From the IMG/VR virus record IMGVR_UViG_2728369183_000003: 14,772 bases of DNA; one strand, 5' to 3'. The position numbers were made by a program, and so were the translations under genes. Position 1 is the stretch's first letter. Each line of letters starts with the position of its first letter. Origin of the DNA: a virus. Its lineage: Duplodnaviria; Heunggongvirae; Uroviricota; Caudoviricetes. The notes beneath the pieces are model-generated. The model did no database searches. It was not told where the DNA came from and worked only from the letters and a program-made list of their open reading frames with translations. Positions 1-12,396 of the stretch are shown in pieces.

Positions 1-41
1 CTTTAGTTTAATATTGGAATAGCAAAATATTTGTATAAATA

Positions 42-344
42 TTAGCGGTATACACACTTATAGATAATCCAAAGCTGACGAAGGTGTTGTTTTACCTTAC
101 AGTGGCTTACTTCTCCATAAATCCGATTACTTTGGTCTTCTTCTGTGTCATCGTAAAAATGATATCTCGTTTTTTTAATGATACTTTCCATAATGTCATT
201 CATATTGTATTTATTGTTGAGAAAATAATAAAAATCATCTGGTGCATTCCTCCGCAATCCGTCCATATAGCTCCTGAAATAACATTCGGCTTGTTCAATA
301 AACTGTTTTGTCGTAATAAGCTCTATCTTCATATTTTTCTCCAT
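42..344 (-). CDS. hypothetical small protein (about 96-100 aa) in AT-rich DNA downstream of alpA; second in-frame ATG at 332 has a better GGAG Shine-Dalgarno
   Basis: ORF in the six-frame track with mixed charged/aromatic composition; same strand as and 70 nt downstream of the AlpA-like gene; no family recognised. Confidence 0.35.
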   Translation of the reverse strand: MEKNMKIELITTKQFIEQAECYFRSYMDGLRRNAPDDFYYFLNNKYNMNDIMESIIKKTRYHFYDDTEEDQSNRIYGEVSHCKVKQHLRQLWIIYKCVYR

Positions 345-413
345 TATTGCTTAGGATAATAGGATGCCATGTGAGAACAGTTATCTGTTCGACACGAGAT
401 CTTGTTTCTGTTT

Positions 414-632
414 TTATGCTGCGTTCTGGCGTGAGTTTCGAATAGCCGCTTCAATCCATTCATCAATCTCACTTTCAACAAAAGCGACACACCTCGGACC
501 TATTTTTACTCTGTCTGGAAAGTTTCCTTCCTTAATACGTTCATATAAGGTCGTGCGACTGAATCCCACTCGATTTAAAACATCAGGAACGCGGATAAAT
601 CGTTTTACGCTGGTTTCAATATTTTCTTTCAT
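414..632 (-). CDS. alpA: AlpA-family (prophage CP4-57 regulatory protein-like) helix-turn-helix transcriptional regulator, 72 aa
   Basis: Translation MKENIETSVKRFIRVPDVLNRVGFSRTTLYERIKEGNFPDRVKIGPRCVAFVESEIDEWIEAAI matches the AlpA pattern (FIRLPEV...G.SRSTLY..I..G.FP.PVK.G.R.V.W...EV..WI) from memory. ATG at 632 is preceded by GAGGACAGACA; the longer 96-aa ORF from 704 has no ribosome-binding site. Confidence 0.8.
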   Translation of the reverse strand: MKENIETSVKRFIRVPDVLNRVGFSRTTLYERIKEGNFPDRVKIGPRCVAFVESEIDEWIEAAIRNSRQNAA

Positions 633-847
633 TGTCTGTCCTCTATTATTGTAAGTAATCTCTATGAGATTTCGCTTTTCTCTATGTTGTTTCGACGTGA
701 ACAATGATAGCGATTTTGCTTATGGTAATTTAGGGACGTTCAAAGAAGTTTTTTTTGAAAAATTCGAAGGGGCACGGATGGAAAGATAACGGTTAACACT
801 GGATGAGATCACGTTCGCTCGGAGCGAACGTAACCCTTTTACTTGGC

Positions 848-1684
848 TTATTTTTTCTTATTCCTGTCGTCTTCTACATGCTTTTCAACAGGGGAGTCTT
901 TCAAGTGGTTGTTTTCCATCATGTAATCTTCAAGCGATTTCAGATAGCTCGCATCCGTCAGAAAAGCCATTGCTAACGGGTAGTCCGTTGCCTTTAGCAT
1001 TCCTTCATCACGATCGTTGTCGCTGTCCTCGTGAAGCAGCGAAGAAATCAGTGAAAGCGGGATTTTAATGCCGTTATCTTCTCCCCAGAAGATCAGGTCC
1101 ATCATCGGGATAAGACGATATTCAATGATTTTTCTGAATGTGCTTTTGCCGAAACGATACTCTCTTGGCGCTGGAGACTTCATCTTAAGCTGTCTCTTCC
1201 ATTGAGGGATCAGCACTTTCAGATGTTCAATGATTTCTTCAGTTGATGCCTCTTCCAGATGAATATCGACAGTAATGCGTGAAAGATTATTAAGGGATGT
1301 TTCTTTTAGATACTCGGACAGAAATTCGGATTCGCTTAACGCGGAAAGCTCAGGCGTGGCTTCGGTTAATGCCAGCGTTTTCGCATAAAATTGCGCGTGG
1401 CTTCGTGTCGTAGGATTTACCGCGTAGGTTCTGGCAAGCTCATGTCCAAGGGTAGCGGTATCACCACTGAAAAAGATTTCACCGCTGAGGATCTTGTTGC
1501 GGTAATCATCCAGCATTAATCGGTTAAAGGTAGGTATGGTGTTCCGGCTCAACAACATTCTGTAAGCCAAGATACGCCGCTCAACCTCAACATAAAACTG
1601 CTGTAAGGTGAGTTTCTCTATCGCCTCATAGCGTTCCACATCAAACCATGCTTCCAGTGCTTTCCTGATTTCACTTCTTTTCAT
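848..1684 (-). CDS. hypothetical protein, 278 aa from the ATG at 1684 (ORF open upstream to a TTG at 1741); no recognisable family
   Basis: Long ORF in AT-rich DNA; ATG at 1684 is preceded by GGAGGA 4 nt upstream, whereas the TTG at 1741 has no Shine-Dalgarno. Sits between the tRNA fragment and alpA. Confidence 0.5.
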   Translation of the reverse strand: MKRSEIRKALEAWFDVERYEAIEKLTLQQFYVEVERRILAYRMLLSRNTIPTFNRLMLDDYRNKILSGEIFFSGDTATLGHELARTYAVNPTTRSHAQFYAKTLALTEATPELSALSESEFLSEYLKETSLNNLSRITVDIHLEEASTEEIIEHLKVLIPQWKRQLKMKSPAPREYRFGKSTFRKIIEYRLIPMMDLIFWGEDNGIKIPLSLISSLLHEDSDNDRDEGMLKATDYPLAMAFLTDASYLKSLEDYMMENNHLKDSPVEKHVEDDRNKKK

Positions 1685-1892
1685 CCATCCTCCAACAATC
1701 CATTTCCTTTGATATATCTTCACAGGATCCGTTTGGAACAATTGAAGTTCAACTGTTTTGTCATCAGAGACGGGGGAATGGCTAAGTTGTTGTTAAGAGT
1801 GTGAACTCGAGAGCATAAAAGTGGATGCCCGACGCGCGGCAAAATGGTAAAAAACAGCATCAGTAGTAAGAAAAATTGAGCGAGAGAAAGGA

Positions 1893-1921
1893 ATTTTAAT
1901 GCAGGGATTTATGCATGACAA
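1893..1921 (-). promoter_or_regulatory. candidate sigma70 promoter upstream of the 278-aa ORF (TTGTCA, 17-nt spacer, TAAAAT on the minus strand)
   Basis: -35 TTGTCA at 1921..1916 and -10 TAAAAT at 1898..1893 read on the minus strand. The region is AT-rich, so a chance match is possible. Confidence 0.3.
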
Positions 1922-1962
1922 AATCAAAAATTATTTGTAAGTGATTGATTTTGTTGAATGAT

Positions 1963-2024
1963 TGGCGGAGAGAGGGGGATTTGAACCCCCGGTAGAGTTG
2001 CCCCTACTCCGGTTTTCGAGACCG
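1963..2024 (-). tRNA. truncated tRNA-Ser (serU-type, anticodon CGA) 3' fragment of 62 nt, from the anticodon stem to the CCA end; not a functional tRNA, interpreted as the prophage attachment-site core (attR)
   Basis: Reverse complement of 1963..2024 reads CGGTCTCGAAAACCGGAGTAGGGGCAACTCTACCGGGGGTTCAAATCCCCCTCTCTCCGCCA, matching the 3' part of E. coli tRNA-Ser(CGA) as recalled. Similarity stops at 2025; the 5' acceptor and D arms are absent. Confidence 0.85.
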
Positions 2025-2514
2025 ATGATACAGAGTCGAAAAATCAAAGAGTTAAAAATTTTTCTTGGAATAAATGTCTTAAAATCGTACACGAAAAATC
2101 AATAAATTACATAACATTAAAGAAGAATATTCCAAGCCTTCTTGAGGCCACCACCTGTTTTCAGGTGTCATTCAGATGTGATTTACCCCAGATTGGGAAA
2201 GCACGCTTTTTTTTCTCAGCTTATTCCGTTTTGCCTGTGTGTTGAATAATTCCACTGCAGTTATATAAAATCGGTAACGGCTGGAAATCATTCAATACTC
2301 GCACTATCGAAAGTTCACCAGCCAACCGCAGCACGTCCTGCATACGTCGTGTCTGCGGTTTTTCTTTTTCGCTTACATTGTGTCTGGTTCTTCCAGCCAC
2401 TCAATATCAGGTGCAGTTGATGTATCAACACGGTTCAGCAACACCCGATACTTTTTCCAGGCTTCCAGCAACGGGGTTTCTTCCTCCGCCGTTGCATATA
2501 CAGCTCACCTTTTT

Positions 2515-2835
2515 TCACCCACGATTAACCAACAGCCAGACCAGCAGACACGCCACCACCGGNNNNNNNNNNNNNNNNNNNNNNNNNNNNNNNNNNNNNN
2601 NNNNNNNNNNNNNNNNNNNNNNNACACGCGGATCAAAACCGCCCCACCACGGCATGTTAATCCGCTTGCCATGCCCGAACATTTCAATCCAGCGATATTC
2701 TGCCTGGGTGTGTTCACGCGCAATGAAGAACGTACAACCAGCTATCGCTCCGTAAGCCCAGTTTCCGGTAAAAAGACCAGCCAGTACCTGCACCGCCACG
2801 GCACAAAGCGCATGAAGTATCGACGTGATATCCAT
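2515..2835 (-). CDS. small hydrophobic (predicted membrane) protein of about 106 aa, interrupted by a 61-nt N-run (2563-2623); the C-terminal 15 codons and stop are uncertain
   Basis: ATG at 2835 preceded by AAGGA 6 nt upstream. N-terminal 70 aa (MDITSILHALCAVAVQVLAGLFTGNWAYGAIAGCTFFIAREHTQAEYRWIEMFGHGKRINMPWWGGFDPR) contains a long hydrophobic segment. Last gene before the att fragment. Confidence 0.5.
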   Translation of the reverse strand: MDITSILHALCAVAVQVLAGLFTGNWAYGAIAGCTFFIAREHTQAEYRWIEMFGHGKRINMPWWGGFDPRXXXXXXXXXXXXXXXXXXXXXPVVACLLVWLLVNRG

Positions 2836-2844
2836 CTGCTATCC

Positions 2845-3123
2845 TTAAAACCACTCCCTGAGCGGGCGCTCTGGTGTAACCACCCACTCACGGAACACGG
2901 AATCCTCAAATCCATCGTCAAGAAGACGGATATTAACAAAGTACCCTTCGTTTCGCGTGTATTCTGGTTCTCCGTCATCAGAAACATCTGTCTCCCTGAA
3001 CGTAAAACCAATCTCATCAACCAGAACGGCATTCTGCAGCTCTTCGTCCTCTTCCCAGTTAAGTTTCCTGAGAAATGCCCTGAAATCTGCTCTATCACTG
3101 AAACGCAACGTGAAATCTCTCAC
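2845..3123 (-). CDS. acidic 92-aa hypothetical protein, translationally coupled to stf (GTG start overlapping the stf stop as GTGA); possible fibre-associated or other cargo function
   Basis: GTG at 3123..3121 overlaps the stf TGA at 3122..3120; GGGGAGG lies 7 nt upstream. Protein has 24 acidic residues of 92. Its stop (2847..2845) overlaps the Shine-Dalgarno of the next gene. Confidence 0.55.
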   Translation of the reverse strand: MRDFTLRFSDRADFRAFLRKLNWEEDEELQNAVLVDEIGFTFRETDVSDDGEPEYTRNEGYFVNIRLLDDGFEDSVFREWVVTPERPLREWF

Positions 3124-5183
3124 TCCACAACCTCCCCAAGCTGCGCATCTGTTAGCTCTTTATGCCAGAGACGAAAATTCCTCACATGCCCAAATAAATG
3201 GCGTAATCCTGCTGTAGTTTGTCCACCAATGCGAATGGTTGCTGTACTCCGGATATATTCCCATTTGGTTTTAGTTTCGCTGGATATACGCCCGTTACTT
3301 ACTGCACATGTAGACTGATCTGACTTTACACGCATCCCCATAACCATTTTTTTCAACGATGCGTTTTCGTTAACACGCCTATTTGATCCACCAATATCGC
3401 AATAAGGAAATCCGTCTGGCCCATCTGCCGAAGATCCGAAGCCAAGAATAATAGCCGCTCCGGTTTGATGACCACCGGTATCAAAAACACGTGGCGCTGC
3501 ATTTGGCGTTTTATACCAGTTCTTATGTACCTCACAAAGAACCGTAAAAGGAAGATTATAAAGATTATTATTAATTGGAACTGTAACTATATCGCTTGCG
3601 CGGGTAGCCGCCGTCGTTCCTGAGATAATAAAAGATGATGCACACGAACCATCCTCAACCTGAGGGGTGGCCAGATAAATATAGTCTCCAGATACGGTTG
3701 CTCCGCCCTGATTAGGAGAATACTGTATCTGAGATCCTATTTTTAACTCATCATCAATTGCCAGGATTGTTGCCTCTGCAAAAATCCATCCGGTAGCTTC
3801 GTCCTTTCTGACTCTCGCTGTAATCCCTGAGGCCGCGCCACCTGTCATATTAATTTCAAGCGTTTGTGTATCAATATATGCATCACCAAGAAAAGTTGTT
3901 GCACTACCGTCATATTTATCAAAGCGGATACGCAACCTTACCTGTCGTTCTGTTTTAAAACGACATGAGGTTGTCACGTACTTGTTATCGCCTGAAACAT
4001 CAACTGACTTTGTAGCAGCAATTGATGCCATATTAATGGCTGACGTTTGCCCAATCAGAGAATCGTTACAAACAAACTTTCCATAAGTAAAACCAAAACT
4101 ATCAGTTCCAACCTCAGCGACATTCATATTTGCAGATTTACCCCAAGAAGCTGGAGTTGCTGAATTCAACATGTAGTTGGTTCGCTGACCTTCAATCAAT
4201 AAACCTTCTTTTTCAAATCGTGGCTCATTAATTTCCGCCGTTTTCAGTTCGCCAGATTTGTTGATATATGTTGCCGTTGATGCGCGACTGAAATTAACCT
4301 GTTTATCACTGGCAACCTGAACCACATTATCGCCAATCTTCACTTTTTTATAACCCGGAGAATAGCCCGTAATCATATCCAGCGAATCATTAAAGGGTAT
4401 CCACACATCCGGCAGCGGCTGTAAAACATATCTGTACGGCTCTGCTGTCTGGTTTGCGTATTCTCTGGCAGCATCTTCACTTGCTTTTGCTGCCGTCTGG
4501 CTTGCTGCCGATGCTTTCGCCGAGTTCGCCGCCGCTGTTTCGCTCACCTTTGCGTTGGCTTCACTGTCTTTGGCATTCGTCTCACTGGTTTTCGCTGCCG
4601 TCTGGCTGGATTTTGCGTTTTTTTCGCTGGCCTTTGTGGCTGTCTCGCTATTTTTCGCGCTGGTTTCTGATTTTTTGGCTGCTGTCGCGGAGTTTGCCGA
4701 TGCAGTCTGCGAGGCCGCTGCCGCCTGTGCGCTGTTAGCTGCATTCGTTTCTGAGGTTTTCGCCGCATTCTTCGATGAGGCTGCTGCCGTTTCGGATTTC
4801 TTTGCCGCCGCTGCACTCTGTGATGACGCTCCGGCATGACGTGCCACTTCATTCACCATCAGCTCAAAACGGCGCAGTGCCTCCGGACGAACATCATCCT
4901 CCGTCATGGCGCCGAGAAAATCATTCAGCGTACCTGGTCTGGAACCTTCATAGACGGTAATGGTCCCGGCATGTGAAGGCGGAAAATCTTCAACCAGCAG
5001 GGTGACGCTGTACTGGCCATACTCAACATCCATGCTGTAACGCCCGGCTTCATCCGGATTTTCAGAGGCCACCGTGTTCACCACCACCGTGCTGCTGGTC
5101 CGTCTGGCCTTCAGCACAATGGTGCAGTTCTGTACTGGTTTTCCTGTGCCATCTTTAAGCACGCCAGAAATTTTTACTGTCAT
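3120..5183 (-). CDS. stf: side tail fibre protein (lambda Stf-like N-terminus, Ala/Lys/Ser/Thr/Glu-rich repeat shaft, divergent C-terminal domain), 687 aa
   Basis: N-terminus MTVKISGVLKDGTGKPVQNCTIVLKAR...GRYSMDVEYGQYSVTLLVEDFPPSHAGTITVYEGSRPGTLNDFLGAMTEDD is close to lambda Stf as recalled; ATG at 5183 with GGTGG Shine-Dalgarno. Confidence 0.85.
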   Translation of the reverse strand: MTVKISGVLKDGTGKPVQNCTIVLKARRTSSTVVVNTVASENPDEAGRYSMDVEYGQYSVTLLVEDFPPSHAGTITVYEGSRPGTLNDFLGAMTEDDVRPEALRRFELMVNEVARHAGASSQSAAAAKKSETAAASSKNAAKTSETNAANSAQAAAASQTASANSATAAKKSETSAKNSETATKASEKNAKSSQTAAKTSETNAKDSEANAKVSETAAANSAKASAASQTAAKASEDAAREYANQTAEPYRYVLQPLPDVWIPFNDSLDMITGYSPGYKKVKIGDNVVQVASDKQVNFSRASTATYINKSGELKTAEINEPRFEKEGLLIEGQRTNYMLNSATPASWGKSANMNVAEVGTDSFGFTYGKFVCNDSLIGQTSAINMASIAATKSVDVSGDNKYVTTSCRFKTERQVRLRIRFDKYDGSATTFLGDAYIDTQTLEINMTGGAASGITARVRKDEATGWIFAEATILAIDDELKIGSQIQYSPNQGGATVSGDYIYLATPQVEDGSCASSFIISGTTAATRASDIVTVPINNNLYNLPFTVLCEVHKNWYKTPNAAPRVFDTGGHQTGAAIILGFGSSADGPDGFPYCDIGGSNRRVNENASLKKMVMGMRVKSDQSTCAVSNGRISSETKTKWEYIRSTATIRIGGQTTAGLRHLFGHVRNFRLWHKELTDAQLGEVVE
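4454..4850 (-). repeat. imperfect tandem repeat tract inside stf encoding the Ala/Lys/Ser/Thr/Glu-rich shaft
   Basis: Protein segment AAKKSETAAASSKNAAKTSETNAANSAQAAAASQTASANSATAAKKSETSAKNSETATKASEKNAKSSQTAAKTSETNAKDSEANAKVSETAAANSAKASAASQTAAKASEDAA; the same nucleotide periodicity produces the spurious ORFs 4454..4738, 4544..4852 and 4555..4839. Confidence 0.5.
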
Positions 5184-5194
5184 ACTTTTCCACC

Positions 5195-5230
5195 AATAAA
5201 AAAAGCCCGCAGCAGTGACGCCACGGGCTT
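5195..5230 (-). terminator. candidate rho-independent terminator downstream of lom, immediately upstream of the stf start
   Basis: Minus-strand hairpin (stem AGCCCG/CGGGCT extended by A-T pairs, 14-nt loop) followed by TTTTTTTATT (reverse complement of 5195-5203). Confidence 0.4.
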
Positions 5231-5334
5231 CAGGACAGTGTAACTTTACGTTTCCTCAAACGCAGTTCACCCCATAAGGCGGATGAACCTGCGTATCATA
5301 ACAATATTTACAGAAGATAAATCGGCGTCTGTTG

Positions 5335-5934
5335 TCAGAAACGGTATCCGATACCAACAATAAATGCATCCGTTCGCCAGTCGCCACTACCGGAACCTTC
5401 ATAAGCAATATCAATGGTCACGGATTCGGTCGGGTTAAACTGCACGCCAGCTCCCCACGCCAGAGACGTGTTGCTGTGGCGATCGTCATCACTTCCGGTC
5501 AGCACATCGTGCGTTTTCCCCTTGTTGTCAGTTACGCGGAGATAATCCCCGGAGAACGTCGACACACGGCTGTAAGCCACACCTGCCATCGCATAAGCAC
5601 TGAACCATTCATTCACGCGTACAGATGGCCCCGCCATCACGCTGAACCAGCGGTTACGCACTGAATCTTCATGCCAGCGGGTATCGCTGTAGTGCGTTTT
5701 TTGCTCATCCTCAGCATTGGCATAACTGAAGGACGTAATCAGCCCCAGCGCGTCCGTAAACTCATAACGGTATTTCACGTTAATCCCGTTCAGATTATCG
5801 CTGCCTGGCATATCAGTGTGGGTCTGAAGATACCCGGCGCTTAGTGTGGACTGATGCTCTGCTGCGCTCGCTGGCGTACCAGCGGCAACCAGCCAGACTA
5901 CTGCGGACAGAATAACAGCACATAATTTACGCAT
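5335..5934 (-). CDS. lom: Lom, Ail/Lom-family outer-membrane beta-barrel protein (lysogenic-conversion moron), 199 aa
   Basis: Signal-peptide-like N-terminus MRKLCAVILSAVVWLVAAGTPASA and C-terminus ...SVTIDIAYEGSGSGDWRTDAFIVGIGYRF, nearly identical to the lambda Lom C-terminus as recalled; GAGAGG Shine-Dalgarno before the ATG at 5934. Confidence 0.9.
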   Translation of the reverse strand: MRKLCAVILSAVVWLVAAGTPASAAEHQSTLSAGYLQTHTDMPGSDNLNGINVKYRYEFTDALGLITSFSYANAEDEQKTHYSDTRWHEDSVRNRWFSVMAGPSVRVNEWFSAYAMAGVAYSRVSTFSGDYLRVTDNKGKTHDVLTGSDDDRHSNTSLAWGAGVQFNPTESVTIDIAYEGSGSGDWRTDAFIVGIGYRF

Positions 5935-5954
5935 AATTACCTCTCGCTTTTCTG

Positions 5955-5982
5955 CAATAAAAAAGGCGCCATTTCTGGCGCC
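5955..5982 (-). terminator. rho-independent terminator between J and lom
   Basis: Minus-strand hairpin GGCGCCA-GAAA-TGGCGCC (7-bp GC-rich stem) followed by TTTTTTAT, directly after the J stop at 6002. Confidence 0.55.
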
Positions 5983-6001
5983 CGTATTGGGGTTATAAAA
6001 T

Positions 6002-7336
6002 TCAGCTAATCGTGATGCCTGCAGTGGCTTTCTTCATCACAACAACCAGCAAATCGCTGATACTTGCTGTGGGATACCAGCCATTTACCCACCATGCTGA
6101 TACAGAAAACTCCAGCGTCATGTCGCCGCGACCAGCAGGCATATCAATAACACCACTGTAAACCAGCGTATTATCCATCGCGGTACGGTTATAAATTTCA
6201 GCACCGTTTTTCTTCACTATCAGGCGGCATGACGAATAAGTATCGCTGTTCTCCCGCTCATGTCTGGCACCGCTGAAAGCCACCGCCGGAATAACAATCT
6301 GCCGGTTAAACGGCTGATCGTCATAAACCCTGACGGTAATGGTTCCTGATGGCCAACGCTTCGGTGCACGGGAGTCACGAGGGAAAGCCTTACCCACTGT
6401 TTTAACGAGATCGCCTTCAATCTGGTTTGCAGACAGTTTCCCTCTGATGACACAGTTCTTGTTAATGGTGACATTATTGAGCGTGCCGGTATTCGCCGTG
6501 ATGGCTCCACTGATATCCGCATTGCGGGCTGTCAGCCTGCCATCCGGCGTCAGGGAAAACGTCGGAGGATTGCCGGATGACGTGATGCTCACCGCAAACA
6601 GTCGCTTCAGGAACACGTCGTTCATGAACAGCTGATTCCCCTGCGCCACAAACAGCGGCGTGGTGTTGCCGTTCTCCGGGGTAATCATCGCGATACGGTC
6701 CGCCTGCAGCAGAATACTGCTCAGCGTCTGACCATCAACATCCTCAATCCCCGCGCCAATCCCGGCCACATAGGGAATACCGTTTTTTGTTTTCTGCACC
6801 TTCAGCATATACATGGCATTCAGCTCATTGCGCGTGTCTGACTGAACCCGCTGGATTTGCTGTATGGTCACGGCCTGGTCACCCAGCTTTTTATCCGTGG
6901 TCGAGGTAATTTCACTCCCTTTTTTATCCACGTACTGGCGGACCTGTGCTATCTGTCGGGCGTTTTCTGACTGCCCCTGGCTGACAGTCTGTGAGATTTC
7001 ACTGCTCACCCGGTCCACTTTCTGGCTCACCTGCGCGATGGCCAGTGTCTGGTCCTCATTCTTTTTCGCAACCAGCTGCGTGAGGCTGTTTTCCGCCTTC
7101 CCGATTTTCCGGGTCACTTCTGCGATATCCGTGTCCATCCGCTGACGGATGTCTTCTTCCAGTTGCGTGACCTCCGTACGCAGCGCTGAAGCATCAATGC
7201 GCTCTTTCAGTGCCTGGCCCAGAAGCGTCTCATCTATCAGCCCCCGGAAAAATTCCAGATACCCTTCACCATCATTGCTGGGCTGCCCGCTGGCTTCCAC
7301 AAAAGCAGATTTTCCCACCAGGTTGACGCTTCGCAC
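6002..7336 (-). CDS. J: host specificity protein J (central tail fibre), C-terminal fragment; frame is open upstream to about 7400 and joins the N-terminal fragment through a single-base frameshift
   Basis: Translation ...[40 protein letters not shown]...[10 protein letters not shown]...[22 protein letters not shown]...[14 protein letters not shown] is collinear with the C-terminal third of lambda J as recalled. Confidence 0.8.
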
Positions 7337-9693
7337 GTAAAACCAGAAATCCGTCCCCGGCTTAATCCGGCTCCCCTGGACAGTCCACTGACTGCCGGTC
7401 CCAGATAACGGGCAGATTTTTCCACCTGTGCCGTGTTCGTGATGCGTTTTTCTGAGAACCAGAATTCAAACTGTACCGTCGGGTCATACACCGCAAGACG
7501 CGGGACCGCCGTTATCTGAAAATACCCCGGCGTCAGCTCAATGGTGGCGGGTTTTGCAGGCGCGTTAATCCGGAAGGTGGTGGTCGCAGGTTCGCCCTGC
7601 TGGCCGTAGCTGTTAATGGCCCGCACCGTCAGGGTGTATTCCCCCAGCGGCAGACCACTGAAACGGTGCTCCGTGTCTGCGGTGATGGCGGTGCTCACCA
7701 GACGGCTGTCTTCTCCGCTTCCGCTGGTCAGACGCAGACTGAAGCGCACACCCTTCACCACCCGCGGCGTGTCCCATTTCGCCTGTGCCAGATACTGACC
7801 GTCAGCTGCACTCACCTCCACCGTCAGGTGCTGCACTGCCGGTGGGATAACGCTGTTCAGGCTGCCTGACTGCGGCTCAAAGCTGGCCCCGTTATCCACA
7901 ATGGCTTCTTTTTCCGGTACGTGCTGCACCGCCGTGATGGCGAACGTGCCGTCCGTGTTTTCCCGGATGGAGACACAGCGGAACAGGCGACGACGCAGTG
8001 ACGGCAGGGAGAGTCCCCACACCCCGTATGTCTCCACACCATCAGGCAGGGTACTGACCTGTATCCGGTCCGGCGCGGGGTGTGCGGTGATGTCCACACT
8101 CACCGGCTTACCGCTGCCGTTAATCAGGTTCACCGCCGATGTACCTGTCTCCGGCAGGGTAACCTCACGGTCCAGCGTCAGGGTGCGGGTGGCAGCATCA
8201 ATGGACAGGACACGTCCGCCGGTCAGGGTCCCGGCATAGTCATTATCACAGATTTCAATAATGTCACCGGGTGTGTGCCGCAGCCCCTGAGACCCGAGCG
8301 TGAAATCCACCGTCTGCGTTTCCAGCAGTTCGGTCTTTATCACCCACAGTCCGGCACGGTGGGCCTGACCGCGGCTGGTACAGCCGAACGCGTCCATCTT
8401 CAGCAGGTTGCGTCCGTAGCGCAGTATGGCTTCCGGGTCTTCCACCAGTTCCGTGGAGGTCTGCCAGCCGTTCTGCGGGTCGGTGTAATTCACCTCCACC
8501 GCCGTGTGCCGGTCCTTCAGGGCACTGAAGCTGTAGCGGAATCCCACGCCGTTATCATCCACCACCACATCGCTGTTGGTGTACGGCCACACCACATCCG
8601 ACGGGCGGTCCTGAACGAACGTCAGCGTCTGACCGTTCCATACCGGCATACAGCGCATCGCAGAGCAGAAATCACTGAGAACGTCCCACGCCTTACGCTG
8701 TTGTGCCAGGTACGCATTAAAGGTCATCCGCGGCTCGGTCCCCCCGAAACCATCCGGGACCGTCTGGTCGCAGTACTGCCCGATGGCATACAGCGCCCAC
8801 TTGTCCACATCCGCCGCCCCCAGACGTTTTCCCATGCCGTAGCGCGGGTGAGTCAGCATGTCCCACAGGCACCAGGCCGGGTTGTTGCTGTATGCCGGTT
8901 TCAGACTGCCGTCCCAGATACCACTGTACGTGCGTTTTTCCGGGTCATAGTTTGACGGCACCTGGATGATGCGACCGCGGATATGGTAGTTCACCGTCAT
9001 CTGCTGGCCGCCGAACTGCTCCGCATCCACCTGCAGCCCCACAATGGCCGTGTTCGGGTAGCACTGTTTCACATCGATGATTTCGGTGTATGACGACCAC
9101 AGCGTCTTATTCTGCAGCTGGTCCGTGGTGCTGTCCGCCGTCTCCCTGACCATCCGGATGTTAAAGGGCCGGGGAGGCAGATTATCCAGAATCACCGAGG
9201 CCAGGAACTGCGAGGTGGTCTTGCCGTTAATGGTGACATCCTTTTCCGTCACCCAGCGGCCATTACGCTGTAACTGAATCAGAATCCGGACAGAGGAAGG
9301 ATTACGGTCGCCCTTTGACGTGGTCTGCACCAGTGACTGCACCCCGAAGGTAACCCGCAGGCGGTCAATGTTCGCGGACGTAATGGTGCGCGTCACCGGT
9401 TTTGCCTTCGTCACTTCCACGCCCAGTCCGGTTTCAGCACCGGAGGACTCAAAGCCTTCCGGTGGTGTCTGCTCCTGCTCCCCGGCGCGCCAGACCGCCG
9501 TCACACCGTGTATCACGGGATTACCGTCCGTGTCCGTCAGCGGGGTTTTGTTCACCAGGATACTCTGCAGTCCCTTCACCGGACCTTCTATCGGTCCCTC
9601 ACCAATCGCATCAATCACGCTCATCATCTGCGTGGATTTGAGATTATCCTTCGCCTCACGAGGCGTGTGTGCCTTACCGCCACCTTTTCCCAT
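7237..9693 (-). CDS. J: host specificity protein J (central tail fibre), N-terminal fragment of 818 aa ending in an out-of-frame tail after the frameshift near 7365-7370
   Basis: ATG at 9693 preceded by GGGGAAGG. Translation ...[29 protein letters not shown] follows lambda J; after YLGPA the frame departs from J and the continuation appears in the overlapping frame of 6002..7336. Confidence 0.8.
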
Positions 9694-9797
9694 ACAGCCT
9701 TCCCCTGAATAAATTAACCGCCACTTGCCATTCCGTACAGAAGTCGGATATCCTTCGCCCGAAAAGCATGAAACACATTTCTGCCATGCTAAAGAGA

Positions 9798-9832
9798 AAC
9801 CCCGGTATCAGCAGATACCGGGGTTTTCTTTC
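9798..9832. terminator. bidirectional hairpin terminator candidate inside the I-J intergenic insertion
   Basis: Perfect 12-bp inverted repeat AACCCCGGTATC-AGCA-GATACCGGGGTT (9798-9825), followed by TTTTCTTTC on the plus strand and by TTTCTCTTT on the minus strand. Confidence 0.5.
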
Positions 9833-9898
9833 ATGCCCACCGATAATCCTGTTGGTTAAAACCGGTAATGGCATAAAAATTCTGAATATCTTCACATT

Positions 9899-9926
9899 TT
9901 CACAAACTGACTGTGGCGCGTATAAT
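9899..9926 (+). promoter_or_regulatory. near-consensus sigma70 promoter (TTCACA, 16-nt spacer, TATAAT) firing rightward, antisense to the late tail operon
   Basis: -35 TTCACA at 9899-9904, -10 TATAAT at 9921-9926, A/T-rich upstream tract at 9871-9890. Confidence 0.45.
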
Positions 9927-9932
9927 TTCTCT

Positions 9933-10030
9933 GCGTTAATTTTTTTGTCGTGATATAAGAATAATTCCTTACACTTAATCTTCGTAACTCTCCCGCAGTT
10001 CCTGTCCGCGATCACTGCGGGATTTTTTTA
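9933..10030 (+). ncRNA. candidate small RNA of about 100 nt between tail genes I and J, defined by the promoter at 9899-9926 and the terminator at 9992-10036; no ORF inside
   Basis: Promoter and intrinsic terminator in correct order and spacing on the plus strand; the only in-frame start after the predicted transcription start (GTG ATA TAA) terminates at once. Family not recognised. Confidence 0.35.
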
Positions 10031-10036
10031 TTCTTT
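9992..10036 (+). terminator. rho-independent terminator (plus strand) abutting the 3' end of gene I
   Basis: 8-9 bp GC-rich stem CCCGCAGT / ACTGCGGG (9992-9999 and 10014-10021), 14-nt loop, then TTTTTTTATTCTTTTT (10023-10036). Confidence 0.55.
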
Positions 10037-10717
10037 TTACCCCTGCCGCCCGATAACCACGACCTTTCCGCCCCCGCCTTCATCACGGGTGCTGATGTCC
10101 TGGGATATACGGCGGGAGCCAACCAGCATTTCCCCGTAAGGCACCGGCATCGGGTTCCCCTGGGCAATCATGTTATCCAGTGAGGAAAAGTACGTGTTCT
10201 GTCTGCCGTTATCCGTTGCGCGGTAATCCGGTGTTTTTGCCTTCGGGGCCAGCATCTGGGCCACACCGCCCAGAATCATGCTGGCTCCAAGTGAAAACAG
10301 CATCGTGGTGGCAGAAAAACCACCGGCTGCCAGGGCTGAACCCCATAACGCCATTGATGCCCCGGCAGTGAAGAAAGAGCCCACGATGGCTGCCGCCCCC
10401 AGCACAATCTGCAGTCCACCCTTTCCGGCCCCGGCCAGTCGCGGCACAATGTGGATGACCGTTCCCTCACCCAGCTGTTCGTGAAGACGGGCGTACACCG
10501 CCTCCGGTGCCGTGTCATAACCGGCAATACGTATCTGGTACCAGCCTTCGTTCATCTGACGGCGAAAGCCCGGCATCTGCATCGACAGGGCGCGAATGGC
10601 TTCCGCTGCCGTGTTCACATACAGGCTGAGGCGGCGGCCAAATCGTTGTAAATCCCCGTGAAGGCAGATGCGTGCCAGTGGCGGTGACGCCAGACTGAAT
10701 GCGTTCGTCGTTGCCAT
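10037..10717 (-). CDS. I: tail assembly protein I (lambda gpI-like), 226 aa
   Basis: Translation ...ARICLHGDLQRFGRRLSLYVNTAAEAIRAL...IVLGAAAIVGSFFTAGA...LGASMILGGVAQMLAPKAKTP...QNTYFSSLDNMIAQGN...YGEMLVGSR matches lambda gpI as recalled. Confidence 0.9.
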   Translation of the reverse strand: MATTNAFSLASPPLARICLHGDLQRFGRRLSLYVNTAAEAIRALSMQMPGFRRQMNEGWYQIRIAGYDTAPEAVYARLHEQLGEGTVIHIVPRLAGAGKGGLQIVLGAAAIVGSFFTAGASMALWGSALAAGGFSATTMLFSLGASMILGGVAQMLAPKAKTPDYRATDNGRQNTYFSSLDNMIAQGNPMPVPYGEMLVGSRRISQDISTRDEGGGGKVVVIGRQG

Positions 10718-11358
10718 TTTTCGGAATACCTCTCCCGTTTACTCAGTTGTTCAGGAATATGGTGCAGCAGCTCGCCGTCACCACAGTAAATGGCGGCATG
10801 ATTCGGCACCGATGAACCAAAACAGCACAGCAGCACATCGCCCGGCTGCGCCGCTGACAACGGCACCTGATACAGCCCTGTGGCCTCCAGATTATCCAGA
10901 TAGAGATTCTGACCGTGACGCCACCAGTCATCCTCGCGATGAAAATCCGGCATCTCAGTCCCCGCCAGATGGTATGCATCCCGGAACAGGGTGTAACAGT
11001 CCGTCACCCCGTGCTCAAAGCGCCGTCCCGTCAGGTGCGGCACGCAGCGGAATTTGTGAATGTCACCCCGGCAGACCAGCCACCAGGGCAGTGCGCTTTT
11101 TATCTGCAGCCGCCGGTCAGCCTCGCTCAGCCAGGGCAGCCCACCGGGATGACTGTGGACCAGTGCCACAATCTCCCCCTGCATCTCTGCCCGCAGCCAG
11201 TCTTCCGGTGCGATACGAAAATACGCCTCCGGCTCTGCAGAAATATTCACACAAGGGATATACCACTCCCCCTCCGGCGTGCTTATCACGAAGCCGCACG
11301 ACTCCGCAGGCGCACACCGCCGGGCATGCGCCAGAATCGCTGATTCAGTCTGTGTCAT
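10615..11358 (-). CDS. K: tail assembly protein K (lambda gpK-like; JAMM/MPN metalloprotease motif plus NlpC/P60-like Cys/His), 247 aa
   Basis: True start is the internal ATG at 11358 (MTQTESAILAHARRCAPAESCGFV...); the 334-aa ORF from 11619 is an upstream extension. Motifs HSHPGGLPWLSEADR (JAMM) and GVTDCYTLFRDAYH / HHIPEQ present; overlaps I as in lambda. Confidence 0.9.
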   Translation of the reverse strand: MTQTESAILAHARRCAPAESCGFVISTPEGEWYIPCVNISAEPEAYFRIAPEDWLRAEMQGEIVALVHSHPGGLPWLSEADRRLQIKSALPWWLVCRGDIHKFRCVPHLTGRRFEHGVTDCYTLFRDAYHLAGTEMPDFHREDDWWRHGQNLYLDNLEATGLYQVPLSAAQPGDVLLCCFGSSVPNHAAIYCGDGELLHHIPEQLSKRERYSEKWQRRTHSVWRHRHWHASAFTGIYNDLAAASACM

Positions 11359-11368
11359 AAACCGGGAT

Positions 11369-12067
11369 TTACTGCGAAAGTTTATTAATGGAAAGGAAAC
11401 CGCCAAAATTGCCGACATTCCTGCGCAGTTCACACCCGCGCATGCACTTGCTGCATCTGTCCTTACGGATATCCGTGGTGGGGTTGTCGAACTCATCCGC
11501 CACCGCAGGACCGTTATACCCGCATTCATCTCCCCGGTAATCCCACATACAGGTGTTCGCCAGCATGATGCGACCGGGAAACAGCGCCCCGTCCGTCTCG
11601 GTCGGTGTAGCCAGCACAAACGAGGCCGTCATGGCTGTCAGCTGCGACATCTGCTCCACCACCCAGCGGTCACTCAGCTCCTGCTCCGGGTCCGCCTCCG
11701 GATTGCCCGCAACGAAATTCACCGCATCCAGAAAACGGGCATACACCCGGCGGCGGACCACCGTGGCCCCCACCAGACTCTGCAGGTCTTCCGCCATCCC
11801 GGTGACCAGACCGAACAGATTGGACACCGTCAGCGACGGTCTGGCACTGCTGCCCCGGCCGTTCATCTCAAAGCCGCTGCCGTCAATCGGGTATGCCTCA
11901 TACTTACGCCCCTGCCAGGTGACCGGCTCCCCTTTTTCATTCAGCTCATTACAGAAAAAATACCGCTCACCACCCTGTACCGTCAGGTCGATTTCCCAGA
12001 GTACCACCCGCGGTGACTGCTCTGACTTAACCGACTCGTTCAGACTTTCTTCGCGAATATCCTGCAT
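11369..12067 (-). CDS. L: minor tail protein L (lambda gpL-like), 232 aa
   Basis: Translation MQDIREESLNESVKSEQSPRVVLWEIDLTVQGGERYFFCNELNEKGEPVTWQGRKYEAYPIDGSGFEMNG... with the C-terminal Cys cluster (CSKCMRGC) follows lambda gpL as recalled; start overlaps the M stop. Confidence 0.9.
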   Translation of the reverse strand: MQDIREESLNESVKSEQSPRVVLWEIDLTVQGGERYFFCNELNEKGEPVTWQGRKYEAYPIDGSGFEMNGRGSSARPSLTVSNLFGLVTGMAEDLQSLVGATVVRRRVYARFLDAVNFVAGNPEADPEQELSDRWVVEQMSQLTAMTASFVLATPTETDGALFPGRIMLANTCMWDYRGDECGYNGPAVADEFDNPTTDIRKDRCSKCMRGCELRRNVGNFGGFLSINKLSQ

Positions 12068-12396
12068 CAGTTCACCACCTGCTTAAACTCCGCGCTGAAC
12101 TCAACGCGCAACATCCCGACCCGTGCAGACCACCCGGCACAGGTCACCTTTATCTGCCGGTATGCATAGGGTGGCTTCCACAAAAATGCCTTCCAGCCAC
12201 CGTGCTCTGCCAGGAACGCTTCCAGATGCCGGGCCTCCTCCCGGGTCACGGAAAGCGTCACCCTGTATGTTTTCAGGTCAGCATTCAGCCCTGCCGCCAT
12301 ACGCTGTGAGTACCCGTCACCAAAACGCACTTCACGCACCGATGGCTGCGAGTTCACCTCCATATCCGGCTTCACTTTCCAGCGAAAGGTTTTCAT
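12067..12396 (-). CDS. M: minor tail protein M (lambda gpM-like), 109 aa
   Basis: Translation MKTFRWKVKPDMEVNSQPSVREVRFGDGYSQRMAAGLNADLKTYRVTLSV...GGWKAFLWKPPYAYRQIKVTCAGWSARVGMLRVEFSAEFKQVVN is near-identical in pattern to lambda gpM as recalled; start overlaps the H stop (ATGA). Confidence 0.9.
   Translation of the reverse strand: MKTFRWKVKPDMEVNSQPSVREVRFGDGYSQRMAAGLNADLKTYRVTLSVTREEARHLEAFLAEHGGWKAFLWKPPYAYRQIKVTCAGWSARVGMLRVEFSAEFKQVVN

What the first reader, a model, noticed from the sequence alone, without database searches (positions are those of the whole stretch)
1963..2024. Partial tRNA-Ser 3' copy marks the prophage boundary (attR core) and a tandem-island junction
Only the 3' 62 nt of a serU-type tRNA-Ser (anticodon stem to CCA) is present, with similarity ending abruptly at 2025. 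This is the footprint of site-specific integration into a tRNA gene. The late tail genes are transcribed toward this fragment, consistent with a prophage right end (J, lom, stf, then att). The AlpA segment on the other side suggests the same tRNA locus has been used by more than one element.
Basis: partly seen in the sequence, partly recalled or inferred. Interest (0 to 1): 0.5.

Follow-up and report, generated by a model that had tools for sequence, protein, structure and literature searches.

The report
Prophage end scar in serU tRNA
This is the leftover 3' piece of the E. coli serU tRNA-Ser gene, displaced when a lambda-like phage integrated into that gene next to the already known serU pathogenicity island. 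It is a correct but ordinary, textbook feature seen in hundreds of E. coli genomes.

Summary
Observation confirmed and interpretation supported, but nothing new.

**The fragment.** Window 1963-2024 (tRNA sense on the - strand, CCA end at 1963) is 62/62 identical to the 3' part of K-12 serU, tRNA-Ser(CGA). It runs from the anticodon stem to CCA. Identity stops at 2025, and no intact tRNA is in the window.

**Right side (2025 onward).** This is the tail-side attachment arm of a lambdoid prophage. Going right it carries a truncated tfa, two small ORFs, stf, lom, J and further tail genes, all transcribed toward the fragment.

**Left side (1-1962).** This is the tRNA-proximal end of the known serU (TcpC) island, with DUF6387 and AlpA.

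**In the closest complete genomes:**
- The prophage ends about 48 kb away with a lambda-Int-like integrase next to an intact serU.
- The island ends about 23 kb away with its own P4-type integrase and a 14-nt serU 3' repeat next to the native flank.

**Other states found:** empty, island-only (340 genomes), phage-only (835) and tandem (45) among 5,426 complete E. coli genomes, plus eight viral contigs carrying the joined attP.

**Crossover.** A compensatory base-pair marker in the variable arm shows that the regenerated tRNA 3' part comes from the phage and that the window's fragment is the displaced host copy. This places the crossover in the anticodon stem-loop (2006-2024).

GenBank KU052038 already annotates the same 62-nt pseudo-tRNA. 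Interest is low.

The parts
1963..2024 (-). Displaced 3' 62 nt of serU tRNA-Ser(CGA), from the anticodon stem to CCA. It is the identity block of the prophage attR.
   Evidence: 62/62 identity to K-12 serU. Match boundaries are exactly 1963-2024 in thousands of genomes. No intact tRNA in the window. The same 62-nt pseudo tRNA-Ser is annotated in KU052038.
2006..2024 (-). Interval that must contain the Int strand-exchange point. It holds the anticodon stem-loop: loop 2014-2020, anticodon 2016-2018, and stem strands 2009-2013 and 2021-2024.
   Evidence: Marker alleles at 1994 and 2005: GC in attP (8/8 contigs) and in attL (5/5 lysogens), AT in unoccupied serU and in this fragment. The crossover therefore lies 5' (tRNA sense) of position 2005. 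Placing it in the 7-nt loop itself is an inference from the known anticodon-loop class of tDNA sites (PMC4383910).
1963..1976 (-). The 14 nt (TGGCGGAGAGAGGG) that are repeated at the far end of the serU island. This is the island's own tRNA-proximal core, at the T-stem/acceptor junction sub-site.
   Evidence: In AR_0017 the island's distal junction reads native flank | TGGCGGAGAGAGGG | island integrase side. In island-only strain GmF052 the island abuts an intact serU at this same point.
2025..2140 (.). Tail-side arm of the phage attachment site (equivalent to the lambda P arm).
   Evidence: It is contiguous with the 62-nt core and the int-side arm in 8 attP contigs. Sequence conservation among diverged serU phages is confined to about 2025-2140 and collapses beyond.
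2042..2054 (+). IHF-consensus site (AATCAAAGAGTTA), candidate H site.
   Evidence: Perfect WATCAANNNNTTR match, kept in all diverged arms. Only 3 such matches occur in the whole window, all within 1938-2109. Binding was not tested.
2062..2073 (-). Candidate arm-type Int site (ATTTATTCCAAG on the - strand).
   Evidence: Invariant block in the alignment of diverged arms. The ATTCCAAG motif occurs 3-4 times in tandem in the int-side arm. Function is inferred.
2097..2109 (+). Second IHF-consensus site (AATCAATAAATTA). It is part of an 18-nt direct repeat with 2037-2054.
   Evidence: It is partly conserved in diverged arms.
2124..2137 (+). Candidate arm-type Int site (AGAATATTCCAAGC), inverted relative to the site at 2062-2073.
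   Evidence: Nearly invariant block in the alignment of diverged arms; the only change is one base in the fossil copy in phage mEp332. Motif counts; inverted-repeat pair I3.
1938..1950 (-). IHF-consensus site at the tRNA-proximal tip of the serU island (AATCAATCACTTA).
   Evidence: The related motif TAAGTSATTGA lies at nearly the same offset from the tRNA end in the native flank and in the phage int-side arm.
1..1962 (.). tRNA-proximal end of the serU (TcpC) genomic island. It contains the AlpA-family regulator (about 414-632, -) and the DUF6387 protein (about 848-1685, -).
   Evidence: Pfam Phage_AlpA E 2e-18 and DUF6387 E 2e-53. 97-100% identical to islands that continue to H-NS homologues, RepL, tcpC, mobQ, pilV and a P4-type integrase.
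2141..14772 (-). Late region of the lambdoid prophage, transcribed toward the fragment. It contains a truncated tfa (about 2375-2488), two small ORFs, stf (3120-5183), lom (5335-5934), J (6002-9693, with a 1-nt frameshift), I, K, L, M and the tape-measure gene. The tape-measure gene runs off the window end and is interrupted by N runs.
   Evidence: Pfam phage_tail_N and Ail_Lom. RefSeq annotation of 97%-identical relatives. Gene calls.

Best explanation
A lambda-like temperate phage carries in its attP a 62-nt copy of the 3' part of serU. This copy runs from the anticodon stem to CCA and has a G-C instead of an A-U pair in the variable arm. The phage's lambda-Int-type tyrosine integrase recombined this attP with the chromosomal serU gene within the anticodon stem-loop. 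After integration the gene is regenerated next to int (attL) from the host 5' 28 nt plus the phage-borne 3' 62 nt. The original host 3' 62 nt is pushed about 48 kb away to the tail end of the prophage. That displaced copy is the fragment at window 1963-2024 (attR). In this lineage serU already carried the serU/TcpC genomic island, inserted at the extreme 3' end of the tRNA (14-nt core). The displaced fragment therefore took the island with it and now forms the phage/island junction.

Shown here: the fragment, its exact boundaries, all four occupancy states, the attP form, and the marker-allele segregation.

Inferred: the exact 7-nt exchange site, the roles of the ATTCCAAG repeats (arm-type Int sites) and of the WATCAANNNNTTR sites (IHF), and the order of arrival (island first).
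For: - Sequence identity and boundaries.
- No intact tRNA in the window.
- Full layout in close relatives: zinT, native flank plus 14 nt, island int, island, 62 nt, prophage tail through to int, intact serU, mtfA, asnT.
- Phage-only attR next to the native flank; found in 835 genomes.
- Island-only state with an intact serU; found in 340 genomes.
- Tandem junction in 45 genomes, one 100% identical to the window.
- attP (int side, core, tail side) in 8 IMG/VR contigs.
- Marker alleles: GC in 8/8 attP and 5/5 attL; AT in K-12 and island-only serU and in 9/10 attR copies, including the window. The change is compensatory in the 6-bp variable-arm stem.
- The integrase aligns with lambda Int residues 1-338, including the N-terminal arm-binding region.
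- Conserved motif blocks in the arm.
- Prior annotation of an identical 62-nt pseudo tRNA-Ser at the end of phage SerU-LTIIb.
- Literature: serU is a known prophage and integrative-element site (PMC8767318). The serU island is described in PMC5521745 and PMC7074111. The 'regenerated target plus displaced fragment' principle and tandem arrays are described in PMC4383910.
Against: - The window ends inside the prophage, so the intact serU and the integrase of this particular genome were not seen. They are inferred from relatives.
- One relative (AR_0017) has the phage-type GC allele in attR as well, so the marker is not perfectly clean. Gene conversion between the two 62-nt repeats or a different history could explain it.
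- RefSeq (PGAP) annotates the integrase as 'frameshifted' in four relatives, although a 341-aa ORF is open. The residue aligned with lambda Int R311 is K. Present-day excision competence is therefore uncertain.
- No binding or recombination experiment supports the proposed Int and IHF sites.
Confidence: 0.95

Rival explanations
1. Same structure, opposite history. The phage integrated first into a naive serU, and the serU island later integrated into the 3' end (14-nt core) of the displaced attR fragment rather than into the intact gene.
For: The final arrangement would be identical. The fragment keeps the complete T arm and 3' end that contain the island's 14-nt core. Phage-only lysogens are common (835 genomes).
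Against: The island is reported to lack mobilization and transfer genes, so that it depends on transfer vehicles, and to be found only in phylogroup B2 (PMC5521745). Island-only genomes (340) far outnumber tandem ones (45). A phage entering an island-bearing strain would produce exactly this order by using the only full anticodon-loop site available.
Confidence: 0.1
2. The fragment is a fossil attR carried inside a phage genome, as in phages mEp332, ev099 and PhiR70_1, and not the present prophage/chromosome boundary.
For: Those phage genomes contain the same 62 nt plus arm in their interior.
Against: In those phages the 62 nt are followed by about 280 nt of native E. coli serU-downstream flank and then phage DNA. 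In the window they are followed by the serU island. In relatives that island continues 23 kb to its own integrase, a 14-nt repeat, the native flank and zinT. In relatives the matching int and intact serU sit at the other end of the same prophage.
Confidence: 0.02
3. The fragment is a decayed duplicate or pseudogene of tRNA-Ser unrelated to site-specific integration, or it was brought in by the island itself.
For: None beyond the mere presence of a partial tRNA.
Against: The fragment is 100% identical to the gene, not decayed. Its two ends coincide to the base with the ends of two mobile elements. Island-only strains have an intact gene at this position, so the island does not bring a 62-nt fragment; its own repeat is 14 nt. 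attP contigs carry the 62-nt block.
Confidence: 0.01

Closest known systems
attR of Escherichia phage SerU-LTIIb (GenBank KU052038)
   Same: It has an identical 62-nt partial tRNA-Ser, annotated as a pseudo tRNA at the tail-fibre end of a lambdoid prophage in serU. It shares the same arm motifs: IHF consensus, TTGGAATAAAT and AGAATATTCCAAGC.
   Different: There the fragment abuts the native yodB-side flank with no island. The arm is only about 93% identical over the first 185 nt, and the cargo differs (LT-IIb toxin genes).
Bacteriophage lambda attP/attL/attR system (Int, IHF, Xis)
   Same: Prophage order int...J-lom-stf-attR. The integrase is homologous to lambda Int over residues 1-338. The tail-side arm has two candidate arm-type sites and two IHF-consensus sites. 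The int-side arm has three tandem candidate arm-type sites, mirroring lambda P1/P2 and P'1-P'3 (lambda layout from established knowledge).
   Different: The target is a tRNA gene and not the intergenic gal-bio attB. The identity block is 62 nt and not 15 nt. The arm-type motif differs. The candidate directionality factor is a DUF4224 protein. None of the sites was tested for binding.
Anticodon-loop class of tDNA integration sites and tandem island arrays (Williams 2002, cited from memory; Islander, PMC4383910)
   Same: A regenerated tRNA gene plus a displaced 3' fragment mark the element ends. The crossover is confined to the anticodon stem-loop. There is a tandem array in which each element has its own fragment and its own integrase.
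   Different: Nothing substantive. The two elements of this array use different sub-sites (anticodon versus T-stem/acceptor junction), a combination that the Islander scheme allows.
serU island / PAI-CFT073-serU (TcpC, H-NST, Hfp) of phylogroup B2 E. coli
   Same: The left part of the window (AlpA, DUF6387) is the tRNA-proximal end of this island. Relatives show tcpC, two H-NS homologues, RepL, mobQ, pilV and an integrase (PMC5521745, PMC7074111).
   Different: Here the island is separated from the intact serU by a 48-kb prophage. This state occurs in 45 of about 385 island-bearing complete genomes.

Membership tests
Displaced tDNA fragment at the end of an integrated element (Islander principle) | The fragment is identical to the 3' part of a tRNA gene and ends at the element boundary. 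| tested here: met
   62/62 identity to serU. The boundaries 1963 and 2024 coincide with the island end and the phage end.
Displaced tDNA fragment at the end of an integrated element (Islander principle) | An intact, regenerated copy of the same tRNA gene lies in the same orientation at the other end, with an integrase gene inside the element. | tested here: inconclusive
   Met in close relatives AR_0017, FDAARGOS_1283, SB0258h1 and ST131-2822. It cannot be seen for the window's own genome because the window ends inside the prophage.
Displaced tDNA fragment at the end of an integrated element (Islander principle) | Unoccupied attB and joined attP forms exist. | tested here: met
   K-12 has the empty site and GmF052 is island-only. 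Eight IMG/VR contigs have int side, 62-nt core and tail side joined.
Lambda-type heterobivalent tyrosine-integrase att site | The integrase has a catalytic domain and an N-terminal arm-binding domain. | tested here: met
   In relatives, the 341-aa Int has Pfam Phage_integrase, Phage_int_M and SAM-like domains and aligns with lambda Int 1-338. The gene itself lies outside the window. The residue aligned with lambda R311 is K.
Lambda-type heterobivalent tyrosine-integrase att site | The core has inverted core-type sites flanking a 7-bp overlap region. | tested here: inconclusive
   The anticodon stem (CCGGT/ACCGG) flanking the 7-nt loop provides such symmetry, and the marker alleles confine the crossover to 2006-2024. 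The cleavage positions were not determined.
Lambda-type heterobivalent tyrosine-integrase att site | Repeated arm-type sites and IHF sites are present in both arms. | tested here: inconclusive
   ATTCCAAG occurs twice (inverted) in the window arm and 3-4 times in tandem in the int-side arm. IHF-consensus sites lie at 2042-2054 and 2097-2109. The blocks are conserved in diverged arms. Protein binding is not testable with these tools.
Lambda-type heterobivalent tyrosine-integrase att site | A recombination directionality factor (Xis) is encoded next to int. | not tested
   A 67-aa DUF4224 protein overlaps the int start in relatives. Its function was not examined.
Tandem array of integrative elements at one tDNA | [quoted passage not shown] | tested here: met
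   In relatives the phage has the 62-nt fragment and a lambda-type Int, and the island has a 14-nt fragment and a P4-type Int with Arm-DNA-bind_3. Only the shared junction lies in the window.
serU (TcpC) genomic island | It is located at serU and encodes TcpC, H-NST and Hfp. | tested here: met
   Window 1-1962 is 97-100% identical to island ends that continue to H-NS family genes and tcpC. The island description comes from PMC5521745 and PMC7074111.

The most novel reading that the evidence does not exclude
The junction may not be only a passive scar. The prophage's tail end directly abuts the AlpA/DUF6387/H-NS end of an otherwise non-self-transmissible virulence island. Aberrant (lambda gal/bio-type) excision across the 62-nt fragment could therefore package and spread the island's proximal segment. 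Free phages mEp332, ev099 and PhiR70_1 carry the same 62 nt plus about 280 nt of chromosomal serU flank as an internal fossil, which shows that such events have happened at this locus.
Probability: 0.05. Interest if true: 0.35.

Novelty: already known. Interest (0 to 1): 0.1.

Why it matters
It matters mostly for annotation. The fragment gives base-precise ends for two mobile elements: the prophage right end at 2024/2025 and the tRNA-proximal end of the serU island at 1962/1963. It also explains why no tRNA gene is called here. It is a clean worked example of how a phage-borne tRNA half replaces the host half, with a compensatory variable-arm change as a natural marker. About 16% of complete E. 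coli genomes (880 of 5,426) carry this attR type, so the feature is common. It raises no new biological question.

Tried and rejected
- ARAGORN and Rfam at gathering thresholds found nothing in the window. A permissive Rfam scan gave only a sub-threshold hit to 'Plastid-psbl-rps4' on the opposite strand. This most likely reflects an antisense plastid tRNA-Ser-like sequence, an interpretation I did not check, and is not a real family member here.
- The phage collection was searched for a sequenced free phage with the true attP. The 62 nt plus arm appeared only as an internal fossil in mEp332, ev099 and PhiR70_1. The int plus P' arm appeared only in two 'phage' records that are really prophage extractions with host flanks. 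The attP form was then found in IMG/VR.
- Literature searches for 'serU + lambdoid + attR' and 'serU + LT-II + prophage' returned nothing. Williams 2002 (PMC100330) is not held and is cited from memory.
- The terminator scan around the fragment found no intrinsic terminators.
- I considered that the broken tape-measure ORFs meant a degraded prophage. This is rejected, because they are caused by N-masked runs.
- I considered that the RefSeq 'frameshifted' integrase means a dead element. This is not accepted as shown, because a 341-aa ORF containing the residue aligned to the catalytic Tyr is open.

Full report
**1. Observation**

The + strand of window 1963-2024 reads TGGCGGAGAGAGGGGGATTTGAACCCCCGGTAGAGTTGCCCCTACTCCGGTTTTCGAGACCG. 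Its reverse complement is the 3' 62 nt of E. coli K-12 serU, annotated tRNA-Ser(CGA), with 62/62 identity.

In tRNA sense (- strand) the fragment starts at 2024 and contains:
- four of the five nucleotides of the 5' anticodon-stem strand;
- the anticodon loop CTCGAAA (2020 down to 2014, anticodon at 2018-2016);
- the 3' stem strand (2013-2009);
- the long variable arm, the T arm, the 3' acceptor strand, the discriminator base and CCA (ending at 1963).

At 2025 the window has A where the gene has G, and the similarity stops. ARAGORN and Rfam (gathering thresholds) find no tRNA anywhere in the window. The 90 nt ending at 1963 cannot form an acceptor stem.

A 302-nt query centred on the fragment matches most of the 5,426 complete E. 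coli genomes only over query 121-182. That interval is exactly window 1963-2024, inside an annotated tRNA-Ser. Several genomes match the whole window only from 1963 rightwards. The observation and its coordinates are correct to the base, and chance is excluded.

**2. What lies on either side**

Right of the fragment, every real gene is on the - strand and so is transcribed toward it:
- a truncated tail-fibre-assembly gene and two small ORFs;
- a 687-aa tail fibre (Pfam phage_tail_N);
- Lom (Ail_Lom, E 5e-128);
- J, I, K, L, M and the tape-measure gene.

Left of the fragment lie a DUF6387 protein and an AlpA-family regulator (Pfam E 2e-53 and 2e-18).

**3. The full locus in close relatives**

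The window's own genome is not in the annotated E. coli collection. AR_0017 (93% coverage, 97.4% identity) and FDAARGOS_1283 (junction 100% identical over 302 nt) show the whole structure. In window orientation it reads:
- zinT, then the native serU-downstream flank;
- 14 nt TGGCGGAGAGAGGG;
- a P4-type integrase with Arm-DNA-bind_3, Phage_int_M and Phage_integrase domains;
- the roughly 23-kb island with pilV, mobQ, tcpC, RepL, two H-NS homologues, AlpA and DUF6387;
- the 62-nt fragment;
- a roughly 48-kb lambdoid prophage running from the tail genes through the head, lysis, Q, replication and immunity regions to exo, a DUF4224 gene and int;
- the intact serU, then mtfA and asnT, followed by the HPI.

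The left element is the published serU island, which encodes TcpC, H-NST and Hfp (PMC5521745, PMC7074111). serU is also a documented prophage and integrative-element site in STEC lineages (PMC8767318).

**4. All occupancy states exist**

| State | Example | Complete genomes (of 5,426) |
|---|---|---|
| Empty: native flank directly abuts an intact serU | K-12 | not counted |
| Island only: island abuts an intact serU at the same base | GmF052 | 340 |
| Phage only: native flank, 62 nt, same phage arm | SB0258h1, ST131 strain 2822 | 835 |
| Tandem: island, 62 nt, phage arm | the window, FDAARGOS_1283 | 45 |

The joined attP also exists. A 79-nt pattern spanning the int-side arm, the 62-nt core and the tail-side arm occurs in eight IMG/VR contigs. 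In the six contigs compared with BLAST, exo/int DNA runs through the core straight into the tail-side arm.

**5. Which half came from whom, and where the crossover lies**

Two positions in the variable arm (window 1994 and 2005) form a base pair in its 6-bp stem. The pair is A-U in K-12 and G-C in a variant, and the cloverleaf is preserved in both.
- All eight attP contigs carry GC.
- The intact serU next to the phage int carries GC in 5 of 5 lysogens (AR_0017, FDAARGOS_1283, SB0258h1, ST131-2822, 606R7).
- Unoccupied or island-only serU carries AT.
- The displaced fragments carry AT in 9 of 10 cases, including the window.

The regenerated tRNA is therefore a chimera of the host 5' 28 nt and the phage 3' 62 nt, and the window's fragment is the original host 3' part. 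Strand exchange must lie between 2006 and 2024, which is the anticodon stem-loop. This matches the known 'anticodon' sub-site class of tDNA integration (PMC4383910; Williams 2002 from memory). AR_0017 is the exception, with GC at both ends. I attribute this to conversion between the repeats, without proof.

**6. Anatomy of the arm inside the window**

I aligned the window arm with diverged serU-phage arms from O55:H7 DEC5D, mouse strain M1, phage SerU-LTIIb and the phage fossils. Similarity is confined to about 2025-2140, with four conserved blocks:
- a perfect IHF consensus at 2042-2054;
- TTGGAATAAAT at 2062-2073;
- a second IHF-like site at 2097-2109;
- AGAATATTCCAAGC at 2124-2137.

The ATTCCAAG motif occurs twice here, in inverted orientation. 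It occurs three to four times in tandem in the int-side arm, where it overlaps the 3' end of int. All three perfect WATCAANNNNTTR matches in the 14.8-kb window lie between 1938 and 2109.

The integrase of relatives (341 aa) aligns with lambda Int over residues 1-338, including the N-terminal arm-binding region. The layout, with two arm sites plus IHF sites on the tail side and three tandem arm sites on the int side, mirrors lambda attP (lambda layout from established knowledge). The site assignments are inferences; no binding was tested.

**7. The island uses a different sub-site**

The island's repeat is only the last 14 nt of the tRNA: CCA, the discriminator base, the acceptor 3' strand and 3 nt of the T stem. 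This corresponds to the T-stem/acceptor junction sub-site of PMC4383910.

The 62-nt fragment therefore serves two elements:
- its 5' end (2006-2024) is the phage attR core;
- its 3' 14 nt (1963-1976) are the island's tRNA-proximal core.

The refinement is that the two integrases and the two crossover sites are different.

**8. Order of events**

The more likely history is island first, then phage into the intact gene. The island is reported to lack mobilization and transfer genes and to be found only in phylogroup B2 (PMC5521745), and island-only genomes outnumber tandem ones 340 to 45. The reverse order, with the island entering the 3' end of the attR fragment, would give the same structure and is not excluded.

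**9. Comparison with what is known, and verdict**

GenBank KU052038 (phage SerU-LTIIb) already annotates an identical 62-nt pseudo tRNA-Ser at the tail-fibre end of a serU prophage. The general principle and tandem arrays are textbook (PMC4383910). The finding is correct and well interpreted, and it is ordinary: already known, useful for delimiting two mobile elements, and of low interest.

**10. Caveats**

- The intact serU and the int of the window's own genome were not seen.
- RefSeq annotates int as 'frameshifted' in four relatives, although a 341-aa ORF is open.
- The residue aligned with lambda R311 is K, so current activity is unproven.
- The window contains three N-masked runs that break ORFs artificially.

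Noticed in passing
window 2563-2623, 12852-12902, 13164-13210: These are runs of N (masked stretches) whose lengths differ from the underlying sequence in near-identical genomes. They split the tape-measure gene and one small ORF into artificial pieces in the ORF list.
   Followed up: yes
window about 7402-7404 (J gene, 6002-9693, - strand): J is 3,692 nt, against 3,693 nt in relatives. One G is missing from a GGGG run, giving a stop after codon 818. The near-identical contig DALCHX010000005.1 (L015) also has no J gene call. This is either a real pseudogene or a homopolymer assembly error.
   Followed up: partly
L006 2051-2388 (phage mEp332) and L007 2723-3062 (phage ev099); also PhiR70_1: These phage genome records carry, internally, the same 62-nt serU fragment and arm followed by about 280 nt that are 97% identical to the E. 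coli chromosome downstream of serU. After that come moron genes and, in ev099, an integrase gene about 2.4 kb away that I did not compare with the serU-phage Int. It looks like the scar of an aberrant (lambda gal/bio-type) excision from serU.
   Followed up: partly
window 1938-1950; L002 48421-48433; L005 3447-3463: The motif TAAGT(C/G)ATTGA lies a few bases (about 4 to 14) downstream of the tRNA 3' end in three unrelated contexts: the native flank, the phage int-side arm and the island tip. It is a perfect IHF consensus in the native flank and the island tip, and one mismatch off in the phage arm. Why all three share it is unexplained.
   Followed up: partly
L002 47356-48406 (integrase of the relatives' prophage, outside the window): RefSeq (PGAP) annotates int as 'frameshifted' in four independent genomes, yet a 341-aa ORF is open. 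The three ATTCCAAG repeats, including a 13-nt tandem duplication, overlap its last codons, which may cause the apparent frameshift. The residue aligned with lambda Int R311 is lysine (HDLKAKG).
   Followed up: partly
L002 294-355 (AR_0017 attR): This one relative has the phage-type GC variable-arm allele in the displaced fragment as well as in the intact gene, unlike nine other attR copies. This suggests gene conversion between the two 62-nt repeats.
   Followed up: no
window 9694-10036 (between tail genes I and J, - strand): A 343-nt non-coding, AT-rich insert lies between I and J. It has two strong hairpins, one followed by a T run (AAAACCCCGGTATC...GATACCGGGGTTTCTCTTT). It is present in some relatives (AR_0017, L016) and absent in others (AF26). 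It may be a moron-like or small-RNA locus.
   Followed up: no
L014 about 1490-1640 (E. coli O26 RM10386, near ompN-uspF): The same phage arm is preceded by only about 12 nt of the core (GTTTCGAGACCG) and is fused to a copy of the hairpin region that in the window lies at 2310-2365. This is a rearranged remnant of this att arm at another locus.
   Followed up: no
L003 18513-19911 (far end of the serU island in AR_0017): The island's integrase lies next to the displaced 14-nt fragment, at the end far from the regenerated tRNA, and is transcribed into the island. This is the reverse of the usual 'tRNA then int' layout, seen for example at asnT/HPI 1 kb away.
   Followed up: partly
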